From IMG/VR virus record IMGVR_UViG_3300026530_000001, positions 1 to 62,106 of that record: a DNA stretch of 62,106 nt; one strand, 5' to 3'. The notes beneath the pieces were generated by a model. It saw nothing but the letters and a program-made list of their open reading frames with translations, did not search any database and had not been told where the DNA came from. The translations under genes and the position numbers were made by a program. The stretch's first letter is position 1. Every line of letters starts with the position of its first letter. Below are positions 1-58,911 of the stretch, piece after piece. This DNA comes from a virus (taxonomy: Duplodnaviria; Caudoviricetes).

Positions 1-99
1 ACTGCGAGAGCGGTTTGAAAAGTCAGCGGCGGCTCAGGATAGCAATGGCGCGATCAAAAGTGGAGTCGTCAACATTAGCGTAGCGAAACGTCGTCACGA
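1..99. repeat. Terminal direct repeat, identical to 62008-62106; indicates a circular contig
   Basis: Exact 99-bp match at both ends (ACTGCGAGAG...CGTCACGA); 99 is a common assembler k-mer size. Confidence 0.95.
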
Positions 100-1111
100 T
101 GGAAGAGTGGCCCAGAATGCGTGACACCTCAGCCAGTGGAAACCCGCCCTGCACTAATCGAGTGGCGCATGTATGTCTCAGGTCGTGGAACTTCAAATCT
201 TTGATGTCGGCAATCCGTTTAGCGGTCGCCCAGGATCGCTTTACTGTGTCGGTGATGCCAAACACTCGCGTCGCCGCATCGCGTTGCGGCAAGCCTTTAA
301 GTTCTTTCAGTAATCGGGGAGTAATCGGGACCGCTCGCGCCCGCAAGGTTTTAGTGTTCATAGCGTGGATGTTGATGCGATTGTTTTCAAAGTCAACGTC
401 GCGCCAGCGCAGCGAAAGAATCTCGCCCCGCCTCATGCCGGTATCGAGCGCACATATGATGATCGCCCGTAGCCGCTCGCGCGGACCGTCGCAAGCATCC
501 AGTAACAAGTCCTCTTCGGCGCGCGAGATTACGCGAGTGCGTTTCGTTTCGTCGGAGGTAGAGATGATCGTATCGGAGCCTGAGAACGGATGCCGGAGTA
601 TCCAGCCTTCGCGGAAAGCAATACTCAGCATTCTACGAAGCACCGTTAATTCCCTGTTCACGGTTGCGATTGATCGTTGCCGTGAGGGCGCTTTCTTAAA
701 CTTTACTTTCGCGTCGAGACGGCTGGCCCTGAATTGAAGGATATCGCCGTGCGTGATTGATCGAAGACGTTTAGAACCAAAATGACTTGTCAACACTTCA
801 ACGATTCGCTTCACTTCGGTATGGGACCGGAGGCCGCTTATCTTTCGGCTCTCAATGAATTGGGCGGGCGTGGCATAGCGTTCTTTGTAGTGTTTGGCGA
901 GTTGTGCAAATGTGAGGCGCGACGAATCGAGCGAGTCTTCGCCGCGCTCTTCAATCTCGCTCAGAAGCTCTTTGATGAGCTGGCGCGCGTGAGTTCGACT
1001 GAAGGCTTTGCGCTTAACGTCGCGTCGTTTTCCAAACTCATCGGTGAAGGTGATGCGGGCGAATATCTGCCCGTTAGATTTGAAGATCGATCCGGTACGA
1101 GGTCGGCCCAT
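23..1111 (-). CDS. int: Tyrosine integrase
   Basis: Catalytic motifs TGMRRGEI, FHDLRHT, LGHS and RY; N-terminal arm-binding region; adjacent to a tRNA-like attP. Confidence 0.95.
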   Translation of the reverse strand: MGRPRTGSIFKSNGQIFARITFTDEFGKRRDVKRKAFSRTHARQLIKELLSEIEERGEDSLDSSRLTFAQLAKHYKERYATPAQFIESRKISGLRSHTEVKRIVEVLTSHFGSKRLRSITHGDILQFRASRLDAKVKFKKAPSRQRSIATVNRELTVLRRMLSIAFREGWILRHPFSGSDTIISTSDETKRTRVISRAEEDLLLDACDGPRERLRAIIICALDTGMRRGEILSLRWRDVDFENNRINIHAMNTKTLRARAVPITPRLLKELKGLPQRDAATRVFGITDTVKRSWATAKRIADIKDLKFHDLRHTCATRLVQGGFPLAEVSRILGHSSIVTTFRYANVDDSTFDRAIAILSRR

Positions 1112-9603: not shown

Positions 9604-9680
9604 CGGGAAGTAGCGCAGTCAGGCAGCGCACTTGCCTTGGGAGCAAGGGGTCGAAGGTTCAAATCCTTCCTTCCCGACCA
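9604..9680 (+). tRNA. tRNA-Pro (anticodon TGG)
   Basis: Full cloverleaf: CGGGAAG/CTTCCCG acceptor, GCGC D-stem, CTTGC-CTTGGGA-GCAAG anticodon arm, GAAGG-TTCAAAT-CCTTC T-arm, ACCA end. Confidence 0.97.
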
Positions 9681-45617: not shown

Positions 45618-46487
45618 TCACTTGCCGCAGAGCAACCCGCAGCTTGTTAAGGCAATCTCCGTGTCGCCAGTCTCACCCCACAGATTCACCGTGAACCATT
45701 GTTGAATTTCTAAGGCAACCTCTTTCGCGCGGCGATCAAGAATCTGCTTTCTGCGGTTTACGATTTCATCGAAGAAATATCCATCACGAAACGAGTAGGA
45801 ATTCTTGCGCCGTTTCCCCGTTGTGCGCTCAAGCCAGCTTGTTCGCCACAGTAAGTCAGGGTGCGTTTCGGCAAGCCAAAGAATTTCGTACTGACGTTGA
45901 TAAAAACAAAAGAAGCAATTCGCGCGAGTCCGTCCTGAAAATAGTTGTCTGAATTTCCATTCGGGCAACTCGTCGCAATAATGAGCACCAAACCAAAGCA
46001 ATTCTTTGACGCGGTAGTAAAGCGAAGTCCAAAAGAAATCTGGCGGCAATAACCCTTGATTCTTAAGGATTAGCCAAACACCATTCAGATCGATTCCTGA
46101 TTCCATGAGAGGATAAATGTGTGTCCAGCCGTCTGAGGGGCGCGCGCCAACGCGATTTTCATCGGCTCTTAGGCCGTAATAAACCGTCACGTCCGACTTG
46201 CCGTAGTAGCGCTCCATTGGTTCGATCTTGCTTCGCCGCGTACAAAACCGAATCTGGCTGGACGGCAACATATCCTCGTCTTGAATGATCGCCTCCAGCG
46301 ACTTCCCGATGCGCGTTAAAGTCCATCCGGTCTGAATCTCAACCCGATCTAGCCAGTCGTAGGTTTCGGGCAATTCACAACCTGTATCATTAAAGAAAAA
46401 CTCGTAAGGCAAGTCGGGTTGCCGCGCGGTTTGGATCAACGCGCAAGCAAGTGAGTCTTTTCCTGAAATTGGAATTAGATGGCGCAC
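45618..46487 (-). CDS. PAPS-reductase-family protein
   Basis: ISGKDS, DTGCE.PETY, RFCT...KIEP, GLRADE and CFFCFYQ motifs. Confidence 0.85.
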   Translation of the reverse strand: MRHLIPISGKDSLACALIQTARQPDLPYEFFFNDTGCELPETYDWLDRVEIQTGWTLTRIGKSLEAIIQDEDMLPSSQIRFCTRRSKIEPMERYYGKSDVTVYYGLRADENRVGARPSDGWTHIYPLMESGIDLNGVWLILKNQGLLPPDFFWTSLYYRVKELLWFGAHYCDELPEWKFRQLFSGRTRANCFFCFYQRQYEILWLAETHPDLLWRTSWLERTTGKRRKNSYSFRDGYFFDEIVNRRKQILDRRAKEVALEIQQWFTVNLWGETGDTEIALTSCGLLCGK

Positions 46488-47758: not shown

Positions 47759-48772
47759 TCATGCCTTCTCTCCGAAGCGATTTACCTCGTAAAGAACCTC
47801 ACCGGCTAAAAATCCGATCTTGTGTGGATAGTCAGGATTCGGCCATGCGTACATATCCGACTTCTTAATTTTGATTGCGATGTATTTGTCGCCATTCCTA
47901 CTGCGAAATTCGTCGCAGAAGTAGGGGCGCGAACAGGCGTGGTATTTACCCGCTCCGCACTCTTGCGATTTAAGATCGGGATTCGGGTGTTTCAACTTTG
48001 CGCCGACGCCCCACAGGGTTTCCCACGGTTGACCTTCCTGCGTTTTGAAGTCGGCAGAAACTCGCTTGAAGAGGATCACTGACGCAGCGGGTTTGATAGC
48101 CTGAGATTCCAGCCAACCGCCCGTTCCCTTGACCTGAACAGGAACGATGATCGTGGCCGTCTTGGACTTCTTTTGAATCTTGGCTTTGACGAGATTGAAG
48201 GCACAGGCGAATGCGAACAGCAGGACGGTTGCATAATCAGAATGAACGTGAACCGCAACCGATCCCCTCGCTACGACGTGAGACGATCCCCACGCTTCGA
48301 CGTGAGACGATCCCCACGCTTCGACGTGAGACGATCCCCACGCTTCGACGTGAGACGATCCCCTCGCTACGACGTGAGACGATTCCCTCGCTTCGACGTG
48401 AGACGATTCCCACGCTTCGACGTGAGACGATCCCCACGCTACGACGTGAGACGATCCCCTCGCTACGACGTGAGACGATCCCCTCGCTTCGACGTGAGAC
48501 GATTCCCACGCTTCGACGTGAGACGATCCCCTCGCTTCGACGTGAGACGATTCCCTCGCTTCGACGTGAGACGATTCCCACGCTTCGACGTGAGACGATC
48601 CCCACGCTTCGACGTGAGACGATCCCCACGCTACGACGTGAGCGTTCTCTATTTGCCGATTCACACTCAGTTGAATGCTCGAGTCCGACTTGATATAAAC
48701 GTAAGTGAACTCGTCAAACTTCGCCGGAAGGGCGTCGAATTCTTTTTGGGTTGTAACTGTAACTTCTGCCAT
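47759..48772 (-). CDS. Octapeptide-repeat (beta-solenoid-like) protein
   Basis: 16 x HV(V/E)A(W/R)(G/E)SS; C-terminal CGAG.YHAC domain. Confidence 0.8.
   Translation of the reverse strand: MAEVTVTTQKEFDALPAKFDEFTYVYIKSDSSIQLSVNRQIENAHVVAWGSSHVEAWGSSHVEAWESSHVEARESSHVEARGSSHVEAWESSHVEARGSSHVVARGSSHVVAWGSSHVEAWESSHVEARESSHVVARGSSHVEAWGSSHVEAWGSSHVEAWGSSHVVARGSVAVHVHSDYATVLLFAFACAFNLVKAKIQKKSKTATIIVPVQVKGTGGWLESQAIKPAASVILFKRVSADFKTQEGQPWETLWGVGAKLKHPNPDLKSQECGAGKYHACSRPYFCDEFRSRNGDKYIAIKIKKSDMYAWPNPDYPHKIGFLAGEVLYEVNRFGEKA
48260..48643. repeat. Tandem repeat, 16 x 24 bp
   Basis: Unit CGAT(C/T)CCC(T/A)CGCT(A/T)CGACGTGAGA, with no spacers. Confidence 0.95.
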
Positions 48773-49723: not shown

Positions 49724-49828
49724 TTAATGTCCGCAGCACGGATAATCTTCACAGTTGCAAGGTCGATAACCTTCATCGTCTTGCGGGTACTCGTCGTCGT
49801 ATGCGGTTTCGGTTTGGTTGGTACTCAT
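49724..49828 (-). CDS. 34-aa acidic peptide ending CEDYPCCGH, not in ORF track
   Basis: MSTNQTETAYDDEYPQDDEGYRPCNCEDYPCCGH; just downstream of the strong leftward promoter. Confidence 0.6.
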   Translation of the reverse strand: MSTNQTETAYDDEYPQDDEGYRPCNCEDYPCCGH

Positions 49829-49892
49829 TAGCTGCTCGCTTCCCTTTCAGGCTGCTGCCTCTTCGCAAGTCCGTCGTGGCATGGCAAGGACT

Positions 49893-49921
49893 ACTATATG
49901 CGCTGAAACGCAGTGTGTCAA
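49893..49921 (-). promoter_or_regulatory. Strong leftward promoter with overlapping operator
   Basis: TTGACA-17 nt-TATAGT; spacer contains an ACGCAGT half-site. Confidence 0.8.
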
Positions 49922-49982
49922 CTAAAATCGTTGAGTAGAACGCAACGTCATAATAGGCGGGCAGTTTACCTCAGAATAATGC

Positions 49983-50011
49983 TTGCGCACTGCGTCAAAA
50001 CGCAGTACCCT
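49983..50011 (+). promoter_or_regulatory. Rightward promoter with palindromic operator
   Basis: TTGCGC-17 nt-TACCCT; perfect ACTGCGT-N4-ACGCAGT at 49989-50006. Confidence 0.7.
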
Positions 50012-50019
50012 AGCGGGCT

Positions 50020-50208
50020 ATGGATAACCGATGGGGCACAGTCAAGGACGCGGCAAAGTTAATGGGCTGCGAAGTGCGGTGGGTGCAGACCCTTCTCAAA
50101 GCGGGCGACAAGCGCCTACGCTATGAGCGGCTAGGTCGTCAGTATCTAGTGTGGCTGCCTTCTGCTCGCGCCTTTAAGAACGGACGCGGGAAGCGAGCTA
50201 CGGCTTAA
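50020..50208 (+). CDS. Small HTH (HTH_17/Xis-like) DNA-binding protein
   Basis: TVKDAAKLMGCEVRWVQTLLKAG...RLGRQYLV. Confidence 0.75.
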   Translation: MDNRWGTVKDAAKLMGCEVRWVQTLLKAGDKRLRYERLGRQYLVWLPSARAFKNGRGKRATA

Positions 50209-50350
50209 TAGCAATCGTGACTAGGCCGACAATCAGGCTCAGCGGAATCGGGGAGCTTGACTCGGCGCATGGAGGCGAGTTGGTGTCGCCAGCAAACAGC
50301 ACAGTTGAGAATGTCAGAATTAGCAGGGCAGTCAGGGTTAGCTTTTTCAT
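50198..50350 (-). CDS. 50-aa secreted peptide precursor (putative signalling propeptide), not in ORF track
   Basis: MKKLTLTALLILTFSTVLFA-GDTNSPPCAESSSPIPLSLIVGLVTIAIKP; Sec-type leader; TAAAAT 6 nt upstream of the ATG. Confidence 0.75.
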   Translation of the reverse strand: MKKLTLTALLILTFSTVLFAGDTNSPPCAESSSPIPLSLIVGLVTIAIKP

Positions 50351-50356
50351 GCGGAG

Positions 50357-50384
50357 ATTTTAGATAGAGACGGGAGTTTATTTT
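50357..50384 (-). promoter_or_regulatory. Peptide-gene promoter, TAAA-N14-TAnnnT class
   Basis: Minus strand AAAATAAA-14 nt-TAAAAT-6 nt-ATG. Confidence 0.6.
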
Positions 50385-50746
50385 TGCCGAAACGAATTCA
50401 GAGAAAGCGAACTAAAGGCTGGAGAATGCCGCGGAACACTGTTTATGTCGGGCGTCCGGGCGCATGGGGAAACCCGTTCCGATTGGGCGATTTCGTTCTT
50501 AAGGGCGATCCCGATCCGAACTATCGCGGACAGTTTGCGATGCTGTATGTGAAGACTTCAGCGAAACACGCGGACGCGCGATTTACCGAACTCAAGACAG
50601 GCGAGCAAGTGCTGGAATGGTATCGCTGGTATATGAGCGTTACCACGCACCCGCTGGCCTTACTGCGCGGCAAAGACTTGGCTTGCTGGTGCAAGGAAGG
50701 ATCGCCGTGTCACGCGGATATTCTTTTAGAGTTAGCGAACCGATGA
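50384..50746 (+). CDS. DUF4326-domain protein
   Basis: RIQRKR.KGWR.P..TVYVGRP..WGNPF...LRGKDLACWC...CHADILL. Confidence 0.85.
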   Translation: MPKRIQRKRTKGWRMPRNTVYVGRPGAWGNPFRLGDFVLKGDPDPNYRGQFAMLYVKTSAKHADARFTELKTGEQVLEWYRWYMSVTTHPLALLRGKDLACWCKEGSPCHADILLELANR

Positions 50747-51627
50747 TCGCAGCGACCACAGAAGAATTAACCGGAGTTGAAGGTGAAGTCCGCTCGCTGA
50801 TTGCTCGGGCCGTTGCTCTACGAATGGCCGGCGATTCTCAAGGATCGTTTGATCTACTTACAGCATCGGAGCGATTAGTTGAATCTGTTTCGGTAAGTCG
50901 TCAAGGGCGCTTCTATAATCAACGCGCATTAGCCCTCAAAGACCTGAAGGAATACGACCGCGCCATTCTCGAGTTCGACCGCGCGGCCTATTGCTTTGAA
51001 GAATCGGGCGAGGTTGAGTTGCAGGGAATGGTTCATAACAATATCGCTCGCGCGTATTCCCTGTCAGGCAACTATACTCGCGCTCGCGAAAGCGTTAACA
51101 AGGCGATCGGGCTTACGACAAATCCAACGCTACTGGCCCAGTGGGGCGATCAGTTGGCGAATGTTTTACTTGACGAGGGGAAATTTGAACTTGCGGAAAT
51201 CGAGGTTGACAAAGCCCTGTCGCTACTAGTTGACAGGGAACAGGTTGCCCTACTTGCGGAATGCTTAGATACCAAAAATCGGTGCATGCAACAAAAAAAT
51301 GGCACTTGCAGGGATTCTGTGTACATGGTAAGCACTAACTCTCGATTATCTTCTAATTTGTTTCGCAGCCCCCGAGGTGAACAAATGCCCCGCACGATCC
51401 TCGAATGCGCTCAACGAATTATTCGCGACGATCATGAACTTGCCATGCCTCTACTTACGTTAATGGCTTTAGCCGTCGATCCAAACGGAGATCCCGATCG
51501 CTACGGGTCCGCAGATGAGGCAATGCAATTTCTGGCCGTTAAGACGCCGGACGGTGAGGCGTTTTGTCGTTCGTTGATTGACTCGCTGGCGAATAGTCCG
51601 CAGGAAATAAGCGATTCTAGCTCCTAG
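50743..51627 (+). CDS. Tetratricopeptide-repeat protein (Rap/RRNPP-like receptor candidate)
   Basis: TPR patterns RFYNQRALAL..LKEYDRAI..F..A, VHNNIARAY...GNY..A..S..KA and LANVLLDEGKFELA...VDKAL; ATGA-coupled start at 50743. Confidence 0.8.
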   Translation: MIAATTEELTGVEGEVRSLIARAVALRMAGDSQGSFDLLTASERLVESVSVSRQGRFYNQRALALKDLKEYDRAILEFDRAAYCFEESGEVELQGMVHNNIARAYSLSGNYTRARESVNKAIGLTTNPTLLAQWGDQLANVLLDEGKFELAEIEVDKALSLLVDREQVALLAECLDTKNRCMQQKNGTCRDSVYMVSTNSRLSSNLFRSPRGEQMPRTILECAQRIIRDDHELAMPLLTLMALAVDPNGDPDRYGSADEAMQFLAVKTPDGEAFCRSLIDSLANSPQEISDSSS

Positions 51628-52009
51628 CAGTCCTTCTCTGGATATCGCGTTTTACCACATCGATTAAGACGCGCACTTCTTTCTTGTCGGTCTCGGATTC
51701 CAATCGCTCGCATTCCTGATAGAGAGCGAAGGCCGCACTCTTTTTGAATCCAGTATCTGAGGGAACAATCCGCCCGAGATAGATGGCGAGTAGGTCTTCT
51801 ACGGGCTCTCCCAAGCCCAAAGACAGGCTGTAGATCATGTCGATGCTTGGGCTCTTGACGTGCCCCTGGATTATAGAATTGACATAGCCAGGGCTCAGCT
51901 CCCCGCCTAGTTTCTTCGCTCTTTGGGCAACTTTAACGTGAGAGAGACCCTTCTCCGCGATGACGCGGCGCACGTAATCTTGTGGAGTTTCGCCTGTGGT
52001 TTTTGGCAA
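51617..52009 (-). CDS. XRE-family repressor (CI/ImmR-like, no S24 peptidase domain)
   Basis: EKGLS...VA......LSPGYVNSII.G....PSID.I..LSLGLG HTH; probable leaderless TTG start 7 nt after TAGTCT; divergent from a cro-like gene. Confidence 0.75.
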   Translation of the reverse strand: MPKTTGETPQDYVRRVIAEKGLSHVKVAQRAKKLGGELSPGYVNSIIQGHVKSPSIDMIYSLSLGLGEPVEDLLAIYLGRIVPSDTGFKKSAAFALYQECERLESETDKKEVRVLIDVVKRDIQRRTARS

Positions 52010-52068
52010 GCCGCACAGACTAGCATCTCGCCCGCCTAAATAATTATCTTTTATAGATACGATTGTTG

Positions 52069-52097
52069 TTGCATCCATCAGAATTCCATGCTAGGGT
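52069..52097 (+). promoter_or_regulatory. PR-like promoter
   Basis: TTGCAT-17 nt-TAGGGT with extended -10 TG. Confidence 0.6.
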
Positions 52098-52111
52098 GCG
52101 CCTACCATCGT

Positions 52112-52405
52112 ATGCGGAACACATCAGATATTAGGCAGCGCTACCGAGGCGACCTATTGATTTGGCGGGCGAACCAGCTTGGTCTGAACTATCAGGCCGT
52201 ATCTCGAATTATCGCCGCTCAGCCAAACGATCTCATAGTCAACGGCGCGACAGTCAAGCGGATCTTCTCAGGCGCGAACGCGACATTTGACACCGTTTGG
52301 GCAATCGCCGACGCGCTGAATATCGACCGTCATGCGATGACTGATTTCAAATTGAAAGAGCGTGATTTCTCTCGTGCGGTAGTCAATGGAAAGGCTGCGC
52401 GATGA
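52112..52405 (+). CDS. Cro-like XRE HTH protein
   Basis: ATVKRIFSG.NATFDTVWAIADALNI; first gene of the rightward early operon. Confidence 0.7.
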   Translation: MRNTSDIRQRYRGDLLIWRANQLGLNYQAVSRIIAAQPNDLIVNGATVKRIFSGANATFDTVWAIADALNIDRHAMTDFKLKERDFSRAVVNGKAAR

Positions 52406-52443
52406 GGGGCGGGGTGGTCTCTGGCCGAGCTGCCCCGTTTTTT
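52406..52443 (+). terminator. tR1-like intrinsic terminator
   Basis: GGGGCGG...CTGCCCC stem followed by GTTTTTT. Confidence 0.65.
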
Positions 52444-52529
52444 GAATACCGCAGGGTAACACGGGAACGCGGCCAGCACACATAAGAATCTACTTTAACT
52501 TCCAGAGACGAGAACGTAAGGAGAATCGG

Positions 52530-52869: not shown

Positions 52870-53979
52870 ATGCTACGAATCACAAAATCAACAGAACCGA
52901 TCACGGTAGATCGGTTAATCGTCACCATTTATTCCCCGCCAGGAGTGGGTAAAACCTCTCTCGCCTTTACGGCTGAAAAGCCTTTGCTGCTGGATTTTGA
53001 CGGCGGCGCATATCGAGCAGCGAATCGAGCGGACATCGTTGCTATCAATTCGTGGTCAGATGTTGGCGCAATCAACGCTGCGGATTTGGCCGGGTACAAA
53101 ACTCTAGTTATCGACACCGCCGGTCGCGCTCTTGACTGCCTGACCGCTGACATCATCGCGGGCAATCCGAAGCTTGGACGAAGCGGCGGCGCCCTGACCT
53201 TGCAGGGGTTTGGTGAACTGAAGTCTCGCTTTATCTCATTCACGAAATTAGTCCGTTCGTTTGGGTTGGATCTCGTTTTACTAGCGCACTCTGATGAGCA
53301 GCGCAATGGCGACGAGTTGATCGAGCGAATCGACGTGCAGGGCGGATCGAAGAATGAGATATACAAAGCCGCCGATGTCATGGGGCGGCTGCGAATAACC
53401 AACGGCAAGCGCCTTCTGAATTTCAGCCCAACGGACACGGCGTTTGGAAAGAATCCTGCCGGCCTGGGTGAGTTGAATGTCCCAGTCTTTACTGACGAAC
53501 CGGGTTTTCTCGCGAGCGTTATCGGCCAGATCAAGTCTTCACTAAACAGGCTCACCGCCGATCAGCAGACAGCGGCGAACGAAATGGCTGACTGGCAAAA
53601 GAAGTTTGAGGCCACGTCATCGCCGGCGGAACTGAATGCGCTCATTGCCACCATTGCCGATGATGTTGATCCGAACATCAAGCGATTGTTGGTTAAGACC
53701 GGCAAGGTCAAAGGCTTTGAGTGGGACAAAGACGCCAAACACTTCAAGTCGAACGGCAACGGCTTCGACCCGCTATCCAAAACCGCTAAGGATGGAGTTA
53801 CCTCCAAGCAAGCAAAGCAGATTATGACGCTGACCGGAGAACTCGAGATTGACCCGGACGAGGCGGTTTCAAAGCTGTTCAAGCTTCCGGTCAAAGTTGA
53901 CGAGATTTCCAAAGAAGCTGCGGATCGGTTTATCGCCGACCTGACTACGCGGGCAGACAACCTCGGGGAGGCGTTCTAA
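52870..53979 (+). CDS. AAA_24 / Sak4-like recombination ATPase
   Basis: YSPPGVGKTS Walker A, LLLDFDGG, LVIDT and LLAH motifs; upstream of the nuclease and SSB. Confidence 0.8.
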   Translation: MLRITKSTEPITVDRLIVTIYSPPGVGKTSLAFTAEKPLLLDFDGGAYRAANRADIVAINSWSDVGAINAADLAGYKTLVIDTAGRALDCLTADIIAGNPKLGRSGGALTLQGFGELKSRFISFTKLVRSFGLDLVLLAHSDEQRNGDELIERIDVQGGSKNEIYKAADVMGRLRITNGKRLLNFSPTDTAFGKNPAGLGELNVPVFTDEPGFLASVIGQIKSSLNRLTADQQTAANEMADWQKKFEATSSPAELNALIATIADDVDPNIKRLLVKTGKVKGFEWDKDAKHFKSNGNGFDPLSKTAKDGVTSKQAKQIMTLTGELEIDPDEAVSKLFKLPVKVDEISKEAADRFIADLTTRADNLGEAF

Positions 53980-54602
53980 TGCGAATCTCAGTCAGCGACC
54001 TTGACACCTACCGGTACTACAAGGCTGCGGAGGAAATGACGCTTGAGGACTGTCTGGCGCGACTGCGCAGAGAGACCCCGCCAACTCCCGCAATGCTCGC
54101 TGGTCGTGCGCTCCACGGCATTCTCGAACACTCTAGCTATGACGACGAGGCTATGTCCGTGGAATGTGACGGGTTTCGATTTTACTTTGACTGCGAAGTC
54201 GATTTGGAGGTGCCACTCGTTCGCGAACTGAAAGGCGAGCTTGAAATCGCAACGCCTTCGGGTCCGGTGACGCTGGTTGGTGTCGTAGACGCAATGGACA
54301 CGTCGGTCTATGACTACAAGCTTACCGGCCGATTCGACGCCGAACGGTTCGCCGATAGCTATCAATGGCGATGCTACCTCTCGATGTTTGGACGCAACCG
54401 GTTTGTCTATCGCGTCTTTGTTGGGCAAGAGAATTCGGCGGGAGCAGGCTTCGATGGTCGACCATTTTCTGAGTGGACGATTCGCGAGTACCACGAGCTT
54501 CCCGTCTACCGATATCCAGGCATGGAGCAAGACGTGATCAGGGAAGTGACGGAGTTTGCCGCGTTCATTAAGCAACACCTGAGACTAGCGGAGGCGGCAT
54601 GA
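53979..54602 (+). CDS. PD-(D/E)XK (Cas4-like) exonuclease
   Basis: GRALH...GVVD...DYK...SYQWRCY. Confidence 0.75.
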   Translation: MRISVSDLDTYRYYKAAEEMTLEDCLARLRRETPPTPAMLAGRALHGILEHSSYDDEAMSVECDGFRFYFDCEVDLEVPLVRELKGELEIATPSGPVTLVGVVDAMDTSVYDYKLTGRFDAERFADSYQWRCYLSMFGRNRFVYRVFVGQENSAGAGFDGRPFSEWTIREYHELPVYRYPGMEQDVIREVTEFAAFIKQHLRLAEAA

Positions 54603-55024
54603 GCTTCAACAAAATCACCATCGTCGGAAACCTCGGGCGCGATCCTGAACTTCGCTACACGCCGCAAGGGACTCCTGTTTGTTCTTTCAGCATGGCAAGC
54701 AATGAGAAGCGGAAGAATCGCGATACCGGAGACGCCGACGAGGTTGTGACTTGGTTTCGCATAACTCTGTGGGGGCGACAAGCTGAAACCGCCTCTCAGT
54801 ATCTAACCAAAGGCAAGCCCGTTTACATTGAAGGCCGCTTGCGCGTCGAAGAATTCACCGACCGCGATGGCAACAAGCGGCATTCCCTGGAAGTCAACGC
54901 AACCGATATGCAGTTCATCGGCGGCGGAGACCGCGGGCAAACGGCAGCGCCACAATCAACACGAACCGAAGCGAAGCCGGCGGCTAAGCCTGATCCGGTT
55001 GACGATGACGATATTCCGTTTTGA
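54599..55024 (+). CDS. ssb: Single-stranded DNA-binding protein
   Basis: NKITIVGNLGRDPELRYT...KGKPVYIEGRL...DDDIPF. Confidence 0.97.
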   Translation: MSFNKITIVGNLGRDPELRYTPQGTPVCSFSMASNEKRKNRDTGDADEVVTWFRITLWGRQAETASQYLTKGKPVYIEGRLRVEEFTDRDGNKRHSLEVNATDMQFIGGGDRGQTAAPQSTRTEAKPAAKPDPVDDDDIPF

Positions 55025-56356: not shown

Positions 56357-57217
56357 ATGATTAACCTAGCACGAAGAGAGAGCAAAGCACCGTTATTGAA
56401 ACCGGGCGAACGAAACGGGAAACCTGTACAGGCAAAGTCCCGCCACCTGAAAGCGCCTCGCTACGAAGTTCTGAAAGACAAAATCAGAACGTGGTGGAAC
56501 GATCGGCTAAAGATCGGCGAAGCCCTTGCGGAGATAAGAGACGAAAAACTCTACAAGGCCGAGTATTCAACCTTTGAAGAATTCTGTACTGATGAATTCG
56601 GCCTCAAGCACTCTCAAGCCTACGGATTGATCGCCGCGGTAGCGGTTAAAGAGTCTCTAAAACCTTCCGCCATGGCGGACAAAATCACGAACGAGCGGCA
56701 GGCCCGAGCGCTCGCCGCCGTGCCCCAAGAAAAGCGCGTCGAGGTTTTAACCGAAGCCGCGAAAGCGCCAGGTCCGGTTACTGCGAAACGAATCACCGCA
56801 GCCGCAAAATCAAACGGTCACGTTGCGAAGGTGGAACCTCCGAAGCCCGCCGCGCGTCTCGACAAAACCGGATACGCGATCCCTGAAACGATTCTGGAAG
56901 ATTGGGATCGGGCTGAGGAAACCGCGCGGCGAATGCTGAGTGCGGTAAGCAGTCTCCGATCTGAATTGAAGAACGCGAAGGACGAGAACGATCCGATCTT
57001 CGCGGAAGTGACCAATTCCACCATTGCCGATCTCAACAACGCTTACACGAGTTTCAAGTGCGTCGTTCCGTATGCGGTTTGCACAAGCTGTCAAGGTCGT
57101 GCGCCGAAGAAATGCTCGCTCTGTCGCGGTCGCGGATTTATGAGTGAGTTTGCCTGGAGAAGTTATGTGCCGGCAGAGGCGAAGGCCATGCGCGAGGCGG
57201 TAAGCAAAAAGAAATGA
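56357..57217 (+). CDS. DNA-binding protein with DnaJ-type Zn finger
   Basis: IGEAL.EIRD.KLY..EY.TFEEFC and NERQARAL motifs; CTSCQG...CSLCRGRG. Confidence 0.65.
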   Translation: MINLARRESKAPLLKPGERNGKPVQAKSRHLKAPRYEVLKDKIRTWWNDRLKIGEALAEIRDEKLYKAEYSTFEEFCTDEFGLKHSQAYGLIAAVAVKESLKPSAMADKITNERQARALAAVPQEKRVEVLTEAAKAPGPVTAKRITAAAKSNGHVAKVEPPKPAARLDKTGYAIPETILEDWDRAEETARRMLSAVSSLRSELKNAKDENDPIFAEVTNSTIADLNNAYTSFKCVVPYAVCTSCQGRAPKKCSLCRGRGFMSEFAWRSYVPAEAKAMREAVSKKK

Positions 57218-58911
57218 GCGAAATCACCTTACGTCCGTATCAGCAAACAGCGGTCGCGGCTGCTTTTTCTGAGTGGGCCGACAACGACTCGACGTTGATC
57301 GTCATGCCGACCGGGACCGGAAAGTCCGTCGTGTTTGCTGACATCATTTCTCGCGTTCAACCAAAGCGCGTGTTAGTTCTGGCCCACCGTTCCGAACTGA
57401 TCGATCAAGCGCGTCGGCACGTAGAGAAAATCGGGTTGCCCGTCGCTGTTGAGATGGCAGATATGTACGCGGAGGATTGTTTCTGGGCAGACACGCCGAT
57501 CATCGTTTCGACTGTTCAAACTCAGATTGCCGGCAATGCTGGCGCTGGAAGAATGACGAGATTCGATCCATATGATTTTGGTTTAGTGATCTGTGACGAA
57601 GCCCACCACTTCACCGCGAAGAGTTTTGCCAAAGTTCTAAATCACTATCGTCAGAATCCCGATCTGAAAATCCTCGGAGTTACCGCCACGCCTGACCGAG
57701 CTGACGAGGCTGCGTTGGGTCAGGTCTTTCAAAGCGTCGCGTATGACTACGAGATTCTTGATGCGATCAATGACGGATGGTTAGTTCCGATCGAACAGCA
57801 AATGGTAACGATCGACGGGTTGGATTTTTCTCAGATTAGAACTACCGCAGGAGACTTAAACGGGGCAGACCTTGCGGCGATCATGGAGGCAGAAAAGAAC
57901 CTTCATGGAATCGTTTCTGCCTCACTCGACATCATCGGAGATCGGCGCACGTTGGTTTTCGCTGTGACCGTCAAGCAAGCCGAAATGTACGCGGAGATTT
58001 TCAATCGACATAAGCCGGGAATGGCTGATTGGGTTTGCGGCAAGACTCCGAAAGATCAGCGTCACGAGACGTTCAGAAAGTTCGGTAATGGGAACACTCA
58101 GATTCTCGTGAACGTCGGCGTTGCAACCGAGGGCTACGACAATCCAGCCGTCGAGGTAATCGTGCAAGCCAGGCCGACGAAGAGCCGGTGTCTCTATTCG
58201 CAGATGGTCGGACGTGCCACAAGACCGTTGCCGGGGATTGTCGATCGATACGACACGCCGGAAGAGCGCCGTTTCGCAATGGCGAATAGCGCGAAGCCAA
58301 ACTGTTTGGTGATTGATTTCGTGGGCAACTCAGGCCGTCACAAGCTGATGACGACCGCGGACATTCTCGGCGGTCGTGTATCGGACGAAGCAGTCGAACG
58401 AGCCATAGCAAAAGCAAAGGCCCAAGGGAAAGCCGTAAACATGGCCGAAGCGGTTGAAGATGAAGAGCGGATTCTCCGCGAAGAAGTTGAAGAACGAAAG
58501 AGACGCGAAGCCGCACGCAAGGCTCGGATAGTCGGCAAAGCGCAGTTCTCATCCCGATCAATCAATCCGTTTGATGTTTTCCAGTTGGAACCGGCAAGGT
58601 CACGAGGTTGGGATGATGGGAAAGTTCTAACCGAGAAACAGGCGAATCTTTTGCGTAAGCAAGGGATTGATCCAGCCGAGATGACCTACAGCCAAAGCCG
58701 CCAAGTAGTCAACGAAATGTTCCGACGCTGGAAAGGTGGTCTCTGTACTTTGAAGCAGGCGAACCTTTTGAACAAGCACGGCTATGAGACCAAGGACCTG
58801 ACGATGAAAGACGCCTCCGGCCTGATCGATGCGCTCGCAAAAAACGGATGGCGACGCCCGACGAATCCTCCGCCGATTGAAAGCAGACAGGAGGCTCCGC
58901 CGTGGGCATGA
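57214..58911 (+). CDS. SF2 DEAD/DEAH-box helicase
   Basis: LRPYQ, PTGTGKS, DEAHH, TATP, EGYD and QMVGRATR motifs. Confidence 0.93.
   Translation: MSEITLRPYQQTAVAAAFSEWADNDSTLIVMPTGTGKSVVFADIISRVQPKRVLVLAHRSELIDQARRHVEKIGLPVAVEMADMYAEDCFWADTPIIVSTVQTQIAGNAGAGRMTRFDPYDFGLVICDEAHHFTAKSFAKVLNHYRQNPDLKILGVTATPDRADEAALGQVFQSVAYDYEILDAINDGWLVPIEQQMVTIDGLDFSQIRTTAGDLNGADLAAIMEAEKNLHGIVSASLDIIGDRRTLVFAVTVKQAEMYAEIFNRHKPGMADWVCGKTPKDQRHETFRKFGNGNTQILVNVGVATEGYDNPAVEVIVQARPTKSRCLYSQMVGRATRPLPGIVDRYDTPEERRFAMANSAKPNCLVIDFVGNSGRHKLMTTADILGGRVSDEAVERAIAKAKAQGKAVNMAEAVEDEERILREEVEERKRREAARKARIVGKAQFSSRSINPFDVFQLEPARSRGWDDGKVLTEKQANLLRKQGIDPAEMTYSQSRQVVNEMFRRWKGGLCTLKQANLLNKHGYETKDLTMKDASGLIDALAKNGWRRPTNPPPIESRQEAPPWA

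What the first reader, a model, noticed from the sequence alone, without database searches (positions are those of the whole stretch)
50198..52405. Candidate arbitrium/Rap-Phr-like peptide communication system at the lysis-lysogeny switch of a probable diderm phage
Seen: (1) an unannotated 50-aa precursor, MKKLTLTALLILTFSTVLFA | GDTNSPPCAESSSP-IPLSLIVGLVTIAIKP, with a Sec leader, a short polar core and a hydrophobic tail; (2) about 390 bp away, a 294-aa TPR protein with Asn-bearing helices (FYNQRA, HNNIA, LANVL) and no N-terminal HTH; (3) its 3' end overlaps an XRE repressor lacking a RecA-cleavable S24 domain, which is divergent from cro; (4) the peptide promoter matches the late-type class. 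Established: RRNPP receptors bind peptide backbones via TPR Asn residues; AimP/AimR and RapI/PhrI/ImmR control mobile-element decisions in Bacillota. Inference: lytic cells release a GDTNSPP-type peptide that is sensed by the TPR protein, which modulates the repressor by protein contact. The layout (antisense peptide gene, core flanked by two hydrophobic segments, intervening DUF4326) differs from known systems.
Basis: partly seen in the sequence, partly recalled or inferred. Interest (0 to 1): 0.9.

Follow-up and report, generated by a model that had tools for sequence, protein, structure and literature searches.

The report
Phage-borne secreted-peptide and TPR-sensor gene pair
A temperate soil phage carries, next to its repressor, a small secreted-peptide gene paired with a sensor-like repeat protein, and the same pair turns out to be a large undescribed gene cassette of Acidobacteria, which makes peptide-based signalling in these bacteria and their phages a testable idea.

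Summary
The four genes are there as described. The 50-aa ORF is real. It recurs at the same place in a second phage-like contig. It also belongs to a family of small Sec-signal-peptide proteins sharing a post-cleavage motif (A|G-D/E-I/T...), a Pro/Thr/Ser-rich middle and a hydrophobic tail.

The key result is comparative. The phage TPR protein is homologous (hhalign 99.9%, E 2e-32) to the TPR part of Acidobacteriota regulators (TPR + C-terminal Fis-type HTH, some with a receiver domain). In 36 of 42 such regulators from 11 genomes, one of these peptide genes lies divergently upstream. That includes 11 of 11 in a set chosen by regulator alone. A stricter filter gave 30 of 42, against 0 of 130 control ORFs. 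All 6 virus-associated copies keep the peptide, and 3 of the 6 TPR proteins lack the HTH.

So the peptide-TPR pairing is strongly supported. RRNPP membership is not: the TPRs are generic, the domain order differs and the phylum differs. Peptide binding, export and re-import, any effect on lysogeny, and the "late promoter" remain untested.

Best reading (about 0.45): a captured peptide-sensor signalling cassette that acts by protein contacts at the lysis-lysogeny switch.

The parts
50198..50350 (-). Small secreted-peptide gene (50 aa). Signal peptide is aa 1-20 (nt 50350-50291). The family motif GDTNSPPC is aa 21-28 (50290-50267). The polar linker is aa 29-34. The hydrophobic tail IPLSLIVGLVTIAIKP is aa 35-50 (50248-50201).
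   Evidence: ORF. A syntenic homologue in L002 is 47% identical. A profile search of 1.84e9 proteins found P0011, P0012 and P0013 with the same motif. It fits the family signature seen in 35 of 38 host peptides. It is one of 2 of 1173 small ORFs in the window with this architecture. It has no SD.
50743..51627 (+). TPR sensor-like protein (294 aa). The TPR domain is about aa 8-190 (nt 50764-51312). A phage-specific C-terminal domain spans about aa 215-294 (51385-51624). No DNA-binding domain was detected.
   Evidence: Pfam TPR families. AF2 model. There are 7 homologues at 49-61% identity, all with the same C-terminal domain. hhalign against the host TPR-HTH_8 regulators gives prob 99.9, E 2e-32, over the TPR part only. 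All 42 host regulators hit the phage-family HMM, and 41 of them only within about positions 13-201; L043's envelope runs to 229.
50384..50746 (+). DUF4326 gene, translationally coupled to the TPR gene (ATGA overlap). It is probably an insertion and not part of the cassette.
   Evidence: Pfam PF14216 at 7e-20 and phrog_464. It is absent between the peptide and TPR genes in L002, L028 and L072-L074.
50020..50208 (+). Small HTH_17 / excisionase-family DNA-binding gene. Its 3' end overlaps the peptide gene's 3' end by 11 bp.
   Evidence: TIGR01764 at 1e-5 and PF12728 at 1.4e-4, both below the curated cut-offs. A homologue sits at the same place in L002. L074 has an XRE HTH gene in this position.
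51617..52078 (-). CI-like XRE repressor candidate (153 aa, no S24 domain). It is convergent with the TPR gene and overlaps it by 11 bp.
   Evidence: HTH_3 at 3.6e-4 and phrog_3 at 2.8e-5. It is 79% identical to the L002 gene, with the same 11-bp overlap. An unrelated XRE gene holds the same position in prophage-like locus L028.
52088..52405 (+). Cro-like gene (105 aa), divergent from the repressor.
   Evidence: Weak HTH_3 at 9e-4. The assignment rests on position.
23..1111 (-). Tyrosine integrase (context: the phage is temperate).
   Evidence: PF00589 at 107 bits, E 3.4e-32.

Best explanation
The locus is a phage-borne copy of a two-gene cassette that is widespread in one branch of Acidobacteriota. 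NCBI record names for the regulators read Pyrinomonadaceae and Blastocatellia. The cassette is a small Sec-exported peptide gene transcribed divergently from a cytoplasmic TPR sensor.

In bacteria the sensor carries a C-terminal Fis-type HTH, sometimes followed by a receiver domain, and is a transcription regulator. In this phage the sensor has lost the HTH and gained a phage-specific C-terminal domain.

Proposed mechanism (inferred):
1. The precursor is exported and cut after ...LFA.
2. A product containing the N-terminal G-D-T-N-S-P-P-C unit, and/or the hydrophobic tail, accumulates with the number of producing cells.
3. That product reaches the cytoplasm again and occupies the TPR groove.
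4. The TPR protein has no DNA-binding domain. It therefore passes the signal on by protein contact (Rap-like), either to a component of the adjacent CI/Cro switch or to the host's own TPR-HTH regulators. This biases lysis versus lysogeny.

Shown here: the gene pair, its conservation, the homology to host regulators and the position in the lysogeny region. Inferred: export, processing, re-import, binding, and the target.

My odds: a direct peptide-TPR relationship of some kind about 0.55; the whole communication mechanism about 0.35-0.45.
For: Evidence on the pairing:
1. In the first set, 25 of 31 regulators in 5 genomes have the divergent signal-peptide ORF. Those genomes were found through peptide hits, so this set is biased.
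2. In an independent set chosen by regulator only, 11 of 11 regulators in 6 further genomes have it.
3. With a strict filter (signal peptide + SD + P/T/S/G-rich middle + hydrophobic tail) the count is 30 of 42 regulators against 0 of 130 other long ORFs in the same loci.
4. Host peptide genes nearly all have AGGAG 5-9 nt before the ATG.

Evidence on homology:
5. hhalign of the phage TPR family against the regulators gives 99.9%, E 2e-32.
6. The phage clade is monophyletic (support 0.992). It is sister to the regulator of L028 (support 0.996, FastTree local support).

Evidence from viruses:
7. L028 lies in a prophage-like region collinear with this phage. The AAA_24 gene is 74% identical and the next gene 72.5%.
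8. All 6 virus-associated cassettes (window, L002, L028, L072, L073, L074) keep the peptide gene.
9. Three of the 6 TPR proteins (window, L002, L074) have no HTH_8. A TPR protein that cannot bind DNA still travels with the peptide gene. This argues for a protein-peptide relationship and against a mere regulator-target one.

Evidence from the peptides:
10. Paralogues within one genome differ in a short unit that starts at the predicted cleavage site and is often repeated: GETNTPPC x2-3, GDLPTAG x3, GNIPTTD-like x4, GEMGTGY x3, GNITTTS-like x7. This is what multi-copy, specificity-bearing signal precursors look like.
11. The phage unit GDTNSPPC occurs twice in the 94-aa P0013.

Evidence on regulation:
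12. The palindrome CTTGCAAG is exact in 10 of 38 peptide-upstream regions against 1 of 662 background windows. This fits regulator binding between the two genes.
Against: - No binding, export or expression data exist.
- The window's own peptide gene has no SD and no recognisable promoter, and only 33 bp of spacer.
- The TPR fold and sequence are generic.
- The hydrophobic tail could keep the product in a membrane and prevent its release.
- A route for a peptide back across two membranes is unknown in this phylum.
- 6 of 42 regulators have no such ORF.
- Divergent regulator-target pairs are common and would give the same adjacency in bacteria.
- Only two loci (window, L002) show the exact repressor-overlapping layout.
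- The contigs of the six other close TPR homologues (P0002-P0007) could not be fetched.
- The sister position of L028 may owe something to long branches; raw identities to several regulators are all about 30%.
Confidence: 0.45

Rival explanations
1. Regulator plus envelope effector. The small protein stays in the envelope, with its signal peptide cleaved and the tail embedded. There it is the output: for example superinfection exclusion, surface modification or membrane perturbation. In bacteria the TPR-HTH protein merely switches its gene on. The phage's HTH-less TPR protein acts as a dominant-negative or decoy that interferes with the host's regulators. No extracellular signal is sensed.
For: - The divergent layout and the enriched palindrome fit plain transcriptional control.
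- The tail is strongly hydrophobic, scoring 2.9-3.6 in the phage-type peptides.
- Prophages often carry small membrane proteins near the immunity region (recalled).
- The window's peptide lacks an SD.
Against: - Three of 6 viral cassettes keep the peptide gene beside a TPR protein that cannot regulate it by DNA binding.
- The tails are only 10-14 hydrophobic residues, short for a transmembrane helix. In the long type they are amphipathic with acidic residues.
- An inert effector has little reason to carry a variable unit repeated two to seven times directly after the cleavage site.
Confidence: 0.25
2. Secretion-coupled partner switch. The cytoplasmic TPR protein binds the precursor, by its tail or its signal peptide, before export. 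This is how TPR class-II secretion chaperones hold hydrophobic substrates and co-regulate transcription (recalled analogy: IpgC/MxiE, SicA/InvF). Regulation would then follow the export flux, not cell density.
For: - TPR domains often bind C-terminal or hydrophobic segments (recalled).
- The tails are conserved within clades, for example ..LNLLQS.L..F and ..VILTIISLV...
- No import route is needed.
Against: - Nothing links the cassette to a dedicated secretion system.
- Neighbours beyond the two genes are not conserved.
- The most variable, repeated part is the N-terminal unit, not the tail.
Confidence: 0.1
3. In this particular phage the small ORF is a decaying or silent remnant. Only the TPR protein is functional.
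For: There is no SD, no promoter-like site, a 33-bp spacer, and an antisense position inside a rightward transcription unit.
Against: - The ORF is intact with all three family features.
- L002 keeps it with a GGAGG SD.
- P0011 has the same short architecture.
- Chance ORFs of this architecture are rare: 2 of 1173.
Confidence: 0.07
4. It is a true, divergent member of the RRNPP superfamily (homologous to Rap, NprR, PlcR or AimR) that reached Acidobacteriota by transfer.
For: It combines a TPR receptor with an adjacent secreted propeptide. RapF appears in the PDB profile search at E 0.025.
Against: - Designed consensus TPRs, IFIT, HOP, LGN and kinesin light chains all score better than RapF.
- The domain order in cellular relatives is TPR then HTH_8.
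- The family is large and, by its record names, native to Acidobacteriota: at least 4037 clusters.
Confidence: 0.03

Closest known systems
Arbitrium (AimR-AimP-AimX) of Bacillus SPbeta-like phages
   Same: Both are in a temperate phage. A small gene for a Sec-exported propeptide lies next to a cytoplasmic TPR-type receptor in or beside the lysis-lysogeny control region. The related prophage-like locus L028 and viral contig L072 even have a TPR receptor with its own HTH.
   Different: - No sequence kinship was detected.
- The HTH is C-terminal and of the Fis type, or absent (as in the window).
- The peptide gene is divergent or antisense, not downstream.
- The conserved unit sits directly after the signal peptide and may be repeated, whereas the AimP signal is a C-terminal hexapeptide.
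- The precursor carries a hydrophobic tail.
- The host phylum is diderm.
- The function is untested.
(Arbitrium features are recalled. The abstract start and one Introduction passage of PMC10075063 were seen.)
Rap-Phr (including RapI-PhrI of ICEBs1)
   Same: A TPR protein without a DNA-binding domain that would have to act by protein contact, paired with a secreted peptide gene, on a mobile element.
   Different: - Rap's N-terminal three-helix bundle and its length of about 380 aa are not seen here.
- The phr gene lies downstream in the same operon.
- Rap-Phr occurs in Bacillota only.
- The match to RapF is no better than generic TPR similarity.
Phage-encoded homologue of a host quorum-sensing receptor (VqmA of vibriophage VP882; recalled)
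   Same: In both, a phage of a diderm host carries a homologue of a host receptor family and could listen to host signals. The phage unit GDTNSPPC equals the unit repeated in the bacterial-type peptide P0013.
   Different: VqmA is a PAS-HTH receptor of a small molecule, and that phage makes no signal. Here the phage carries both the peptide gene and the sensor, and the sensor lacks the HTH.
Acidobacteriota TPR-HTH_8(-REC) regulator with divergent peptide gene (family described here; no curated model)
   Same: The TPR domain is homologous. The divergent small signal-peptide ORF is present, with the A|G-D/E-I/T start, a P/T/S-rich middle and a hydrophobic tail.
   Different: The phage protein starts about 130 residues into the TPR array, lacks HTH_8 and REC, and has its own C-terminal domain. 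The peptide is the short type (50 aa, against a median of 78). The cassette is wedged against the phage repressor.

Membership tests
RRNPP / RRNPPA receptors | Specific sequence or fold kinship of the receptor with Rap, NprR, PlcR, PrgX, Rgg or AimR | tested here: not met
   In the profile search against PDB sequences the best hits are designed consensus TPRs (1e-11). RapF comes at E 0.025, below IFIT, HOP, LGN and LapB. The Foldseek top hits are kinesin light chain, LGN, NASP and CTPR, with no RRNPP entry in the list shown.
RRNPP / RRNPPA receptors | Adjacent small gene for an exported propeptide | tested here: met
   The 50-aa ORF with a signal peptide lies 393 bp from the TPR start. It is conserved in L002 and in all 6 viral cassettes.
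RRNPP / RRNPPA receptors | N-terminal HTH (or the Rap N-terminal helix bundle) followed by the TPR domain | tested here: not met
   The phage protein has no HTH. Cellular relatives have the HTH_8 C-terminal to the TPRs.
RRNPP / RRNPPA receptors | The mature peptide binds in the TPR groove after import by an oligopeptide permease | not testable with these tools
   This needs binding assays and genetics.
Arbitrium system | AimR-type dimeric HTH-TPR receptor that controls a downstream lysogeny regulator (aimX) | tested here: not met
   The window's protein has no HTH. No aimX-like target was identified. The position beside the CI/Cro-like genes is analogous only.
Acidobacteriota peptide + TPR-HTH_8 cassette (new, uncurated) | TPR domain homologous to the regulator family | tested here: met
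   hhalign gives 99.9%, E 2e-32. All 42 regulators are hit by the phage-family HMM.
Acidobacteriota peptide + TPR-HTH_8 cassette (new, uncurated) | Divergent small ORF with a signal peptide ending ..A|G[DE..][ITLM..], a P/T/S-rich middle and a hydrophobic C-terminal tail | tested here: met
   The window peptide shows ...LFA|GDT... and a tail score of 2.93. Among host peptides, 35 of 38 have the motif and 35 of 38 have the tail.
Acidobacteriota peptide + TPR-HTH_8 cassette (new, uncurated) | C-terminal Fis-type HTH (HTH_8) on the TPR protein | tested here: not met
   HTH_8 is absent in the window, L002 and L074. It is present in L028, L072 and in 5 of the 6 chromosomal regulators scanned; L024 and L037 show none at E <= 0.001, although their C-terminal sequences resemble the others.
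PEP-CTERM / other C-terminal sorting-signal proteins | Match to a curated sorting-domain model | tested here: not met
   NCBIfam gives nothing for the window peptide. For the L002 peptide there is only a 14-bit match of its signal peptide to TIGR04200 (cut-off 40). Eight host peptides scanned in NCBIfam and ten in Pfam gave no significant family.

The most novel reading that the evidence does not exclude
This is the first peptide-based, arbitrium-like communication module in phages of a diderm phylum. It was captured from a large and so far undescribed family of peptide quorum-sensing cassettes of Blastocatellia-type Acidobacteriota. Each cassette is a secreted multi-unit propeptide plus a cytoplasmic TPR receptor with a C-terminal Fis-type HTH. 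On this reading the family evolved independently of the RRNPP systems of Bacillota. Phage versions that lost the HTH would work as Rap-like or decoy sensors, letting the phage count its own kind or listen to its host.
Probability: 0.35. Interest if true: 0.92.

Novelty: new variant of a known kind. Interest (0 to 1): 0.8.

Why it matters
Genetically encoded peptide signals read by cytoplasmic TPR receptors are treated in the literature I could search as a trait of Gram-positive Bacillota and their mobile elements (abstract starts; Introduction passage of PMC10075063). Phage arbitrium systems are likewise known from Bacillus phages.

If the cassette found here signals, three things follow. It would extend peptide quorum sensing to a major, poorly studied soil phylum. 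It would show independent evolution of the same logic. And it would give a first case of peptide-guided lysis-lysogeny decisions in phages of diderm bacteria.

Even if it does not signal, the work defines a large unannotated two-gene family. There are at least 4037 regulator clusters at 90% identity, annotated only as 'CheY-like' or 'TPR repeat protein'. Phages have picked the family up repeatedly. The work also provides concrete peptides and proteins to test.

Tried and rejected
Searches that found little or nothing:
- Searching IMG/VR with the phage TPR family, the repressor and the GDT[NS]SPPC pattern gave no confirmed relatives.
- Genome contigs gave only a partial 32% TPR match (L001).
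- L003 (27%) was not followed up.
- The word-based search with the peptide profile found only the window's own protein.
- P0010 (3449 aa), a hit of the peptide profile, contains no G.T..PP unit. I dismissed it as low-complexity.
- Relatives of the repressor were found in 3 of 401 Acidobacteriota genomes, weakly and without a TPR neighbour.
- Of the 20 regions fetched around peptide-profile hits, 5 were chance signal-peptide matches with no regulator (L029, L033-L036). I used them only as control sequence.

Motif and family checks that were negative:
- A sigma-54 promoter pattern upstream of the peptide genes matched 0 of 29.
- In the phage, CTTGCAAG and GAAAC-N13-17-GTTTC each occur once, far from the switch and no more often than chance.
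- There are no notable inverted repeats around the phage cassette.
- PADLOC shows no defence-system match.
- The Atlas search with the TPR C-terminal part gave feature scores of 0.82 or less and TM of 0.44 or less, which is uninformative.
- I considered a lipoprotein or spanin reading of the peptide and rejected it. There is no Cys at +1 of a lipobox, and the NCBIfam and Pfam lipoprotein models are silent.

Jobs without a usable result:
- Co-folding of the TPR protein (alignment A1) with peptide residues 21-50 returned no verdict (score 0.01; controls were not run).
- Sequencing runs: no RNA holder is listed. There are five soil-metagenome DNA runs. Contigs laid on 49800-52500 were identical to the window, so they gave no variation to analyse.

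Could not be done:
- Supplements of papers were not consulted.

Literature:
- 0 papers hold both 'RRNPP' and 'Acidobacteri*'.
- Searches on Acidobacteria or Blastocatellia + quorum sensing + peptide or tetratricopeptide returned only unrelated papers.
- Searches on arbitrium, peptide quorum sensing and Gram-negative listed only Gram-positive systems or reviews. I saw listings and abstract starts only, except for passages of PMC10075063.

Full report
**What is in the window.**
The window is a complete virus record: 62,106 bp with direct terminal repeats, rated 100% complete. It carries a tyrosine integrase at 23-1111(-) (PF00589, 107 bits), so the phage is temperate. It also has a replication/recombination block to the right of the finding: AAA_24 at 52870-53979, SSB at 54599-55024 and a helicase at 57214-58911.

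The finding's genes are all present:
- an excisionase-family HTH_17 gene, 50020-50208(+);
- the 50-aa ORF, 50198-50350(-);
- DUF4326, 50384-50746(+);
- the 294-aa TPR protein, 50743-51627(+), whose start overlaps the DUF4326 stop (ATGA);
- a 153-aa XRE-type repressor candidate, 51617-52078(-), without an S24 domain, whose 3' end overlaps the TPR 3' end by 11 bp;
- a divergent Cro-like gene, 52088-52405(+).

No sigma-70-like site lies upstream of the small ORF. The only strong site in the region, at 49921->49893(-), serves the leftward operon. No upstream word recurs meaningfully elsewhere. The ORF has no Shine-Dalgarno sequence.

**Is the small ORF a gene?**
A metagenome contig (L002) has the same layout: HTH_17, then an antisense 56-aa ORF, then a 395-aa TPR protein, then the repressor with the same 11-bp overlap. 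It has no DUF4326. Between the two loci the peptides are 47% identical, the TPR proteins 49% and the repressors 79%. The L002 ORF has a GGAGG ribosome-binding site.

A profile of the two peptides was searched against 1.84 billion representative proteins. It returned the window's own protein, one low-complexity artefact and three small proteins, P0011-P0013 (E 1e-7 to 7e-5). All three have a signal peptide followed at once by [C-x-P]-G-[DEQ]-T-x-[ST]-P-P-C, once or twice, and a hydrophobic C-terminus. P0013 contains the phage's exact unit GDTNSPPC twice.

In the whole window only 2 of 1173 small start-ORF combinations have this architecture.

**The decisive comparison.**
Searching 401 Acidobacteriota genomes with the peptide profile gave strong hits in a few genomes: 6 in G035, and others in G347, G065 and G311. 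The phylum was chosen because the one weak genomic TPR relative came from a Bryobacterales MAG.

Next to these hits, on the other strand, lies a 440-670-aa protein with a long TPR array, a C-terminal Fis-type HTH (HTH_8) and, in the longer forms, a receiver domain. The phage TPR family is homologous to the TPR part of these regulators. hhalign gives probability 99.9%, E 2e-32. The window's residues about 1-185 align to regulator positions about 130-334, and the longer L002 form aligns from about position 19. All 42 regulators examined later are hit by the phage-family HMM, essentially over the TPR part only. The phage C-terminal domain (about residues 215-294) is conserved in all 8 family members and has no counterpart in the regulators.

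**How regular is the pairing?**
In the five genomes found through the peptide there are 31 full-length regulators. Of these, 25 have a divergent ORF of 51-97 aa that starts 19-370 bp upstream. Each such ORF has a signal peptide, a Pro/Thr/Ser-rich middle and a hydrophobic tail. Two loci have two such genes in tandem. Six regulators have none (L039, L040, L041, L042, L044 and one of two in L047). This set is biased by how it was found.

I therefore took the six further genomes that a regulator-only search picked out. In that search 11 of 401 genomes had the family at E <= 1e-60, and at most three candidates were scored per genome. There, 11 of 11 regulators have the ORF.

A stricter, fully automatic filter also demands an SD. 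It passes 30 of 42 regulators and 0 of 130 other long ORFs in the same loci.

Of the 38 host peptides, 35 have [AG]-G-[DENTIH]-[ITLMVQ] at the end of the signal peptide, and 35 have the hydrophobic tail. The median length is 78 aa. The phage peptide (..LFA|GDT..) fits.

The unit that begins at the predicted cleavage site differs between paralogues and is often repeated. Examples are GETNTPPC, GDLPTAG x3, GNIPTTD-like x4, GTITGSR x5, GEMGTGY x3 and GNITTTS-like x7. The tails are conserved within clades.

Neither Pfam nor NCBIfam has a family for the peptides. The regulators hit only generic TPR, HTH_8 and receiver models. The regulator family is large: at least 4037 clusters at E <= 1e-40 among the 8000 candidates scored. 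Record names include Pyrinomonadaceae, Blastocatellia and Acidobacteria bacterium, and the annotations are generic.

**Phages carry the cassette repeatedly.**
In a tree of the TPR region the eight phage-type proteins form one clade (support 0.992). That clade is sister to the regulator of locus L028 (support 0.996). These are FastTree local supports and the branches are long, so I treat the placement with care.

L028 lies in a prophage-like region of an Acidobacteriota genome that is collinear with this phage. Seven ORF regions match in the same order over about 52 kb. The AAA_24 gene is 74% identical and its neighbour 72.5%. No tyrosine integrase was found on that contig.

The layout there is: peptide (63 aa, short type, tail TILVTILLALLPK), then a TPR protein that keeps HTH_8 (454 aa), then a convergent XRE gene (HTH_3 at 4e-5), then the AAA_24 block.

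Scanning IMG/VR with the regulator alignment gave three more viral contigs, and all three have the divergent peptide gene. L072 and L073 sit beside Mu-type portal and F genes, and the L072 regulator has HTH_8. L074 has a 508-aa TPR protein without HTH_8 and an XRE gene in the order HTH(+) | peptide(-) | TPR(+), as in the window.

Thus 6 of 6 virus-associated cassettes keep the peptide, and 3 of 6 sensors lack the DNA-binding domain.

**What it most likely is.**
The conserved unit is the two-gene cassette, because the neighbours differ. In bacteria the adjacency alone would also fit a regulator and its target. The palindrome CTTGCAAG, exact in 10 of 38 peptide-upstream regions against 1 of 662 background windows, suggests that the regulators bind between the genes.

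Two things point to the peptide being what the TPR domain recognises. First, the peptide gene persists beside sensors that have lost their HTH. Second, the units vary between paralogues, start at the cleavage site and are often repeated.

I therefore favour a peptide-sensor signalling cassette. By function it is analogous to RRNPP and arbitrium. In this phage the HTH-less sensor would act Rap-like or decoy-like through its own C-terminal domain, on the adjacent CI/Cro switch or on host regulators. Export, processing, re-import across two membranes, binding and the target are all inferred.

The rivals are an envelope effector plus regulator or anti-regulator, a secretion-coupled partner switch, a silent remnant, and true RRNPP kinship. 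They are weighed in the fields above.

**Comparison with known systems.**
By sequence profile and by fold the TPR domain resembles generic TPR proteins (consensus designs, kinesin light chain, LGN) more than any RRNPP receptor. RapF comes at E 0.025. The domain order in the cellular relatives is the reverse of PlcR, NprR and AimR. It is therefore not a member of RRNPP, although it may work like one.

In the paper library, no paper joins RRNPP with Acidobacteria. The searches on peptide quorum sensing in Acidobacteria, Blastocatellia or Gram-negatives found nothing relevant. The RRNPP_Detector paper presents these systems as a Bacillota trait (passage seen). Supplements were not available to me.

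**Verdict.**
The finding leads to a large undescribed cassette family and deserves experimental follow-up.

Noticed in passing
host loci L031, L037, L043, L049, L051, L052, L057, L063, L064 and others (peptide-upstream regions): The 8-bp palindrome CTTGCAAG lies about 80-116 nt upstream of many peptide ATGs. It is exact in 10 of 38 regions and within one mismatch in 19 of 38. In background 200-nt windows the figures are 1 and 38 of 662. It is a candidate operator of the TPR-HTH_8 regulators.
   Followed up: partly
L020, L021, L023, L030 (upstream of the peptide genes of G035/G065): A conserved GAAAC-N15-GTTT(C) element lies about 35-60 nt upstream of the peptide start. It could be an inverted-repeat operator or an ECF-sigma-like promoter (TGAAAC...CGTT). 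I saw it by eye.
   Followed up: no
window 47759-48772 (-): A 337-aa protein (phrog_15773) consists largely of tandem 8-residue units (GSSHVEAW / ARGSSHVV...). The underlying 24-bp repeats keep long frames open on both strands.
   Followed up: no
L037 5699-5866 and 5992-6153; L051 1729-1968 and 2114-2347: Two cassettes have two tandem peptide genes upstream of one regulator. The units are slightly different.
   Followed up: no
L039, L041 (G035:C58 and G065:C27): Near-identical 'orphan' regulators in two genomes have no detectable peptide ORF upstream.
   Followed up: no
L019 6536-7774 (+): A multi-pass membrane protein with a ..PIVEESAKAL.. motif, reminiscent of PrsW-type intramembrane proteases (recalled), lies just downstream of one peptide gene. 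It is not conserved at other cassettes.
   Followed up: no
window 9604-9680 (+) and 45618-46487 (-): The phage carries a tRNA-Pro(TGG) and a PAPS-reductase-like gene (phrog_424, 1e-28).
   Followed up: no
window 52078-52088: Only 9 bp separate the annotated starts of the repressor and the Cro-like gene. The L002 repressor starts 23 codons further in, so the true starts, and hence the operator region, are probably placed differently from the longest ORFs.
   Followed up: no
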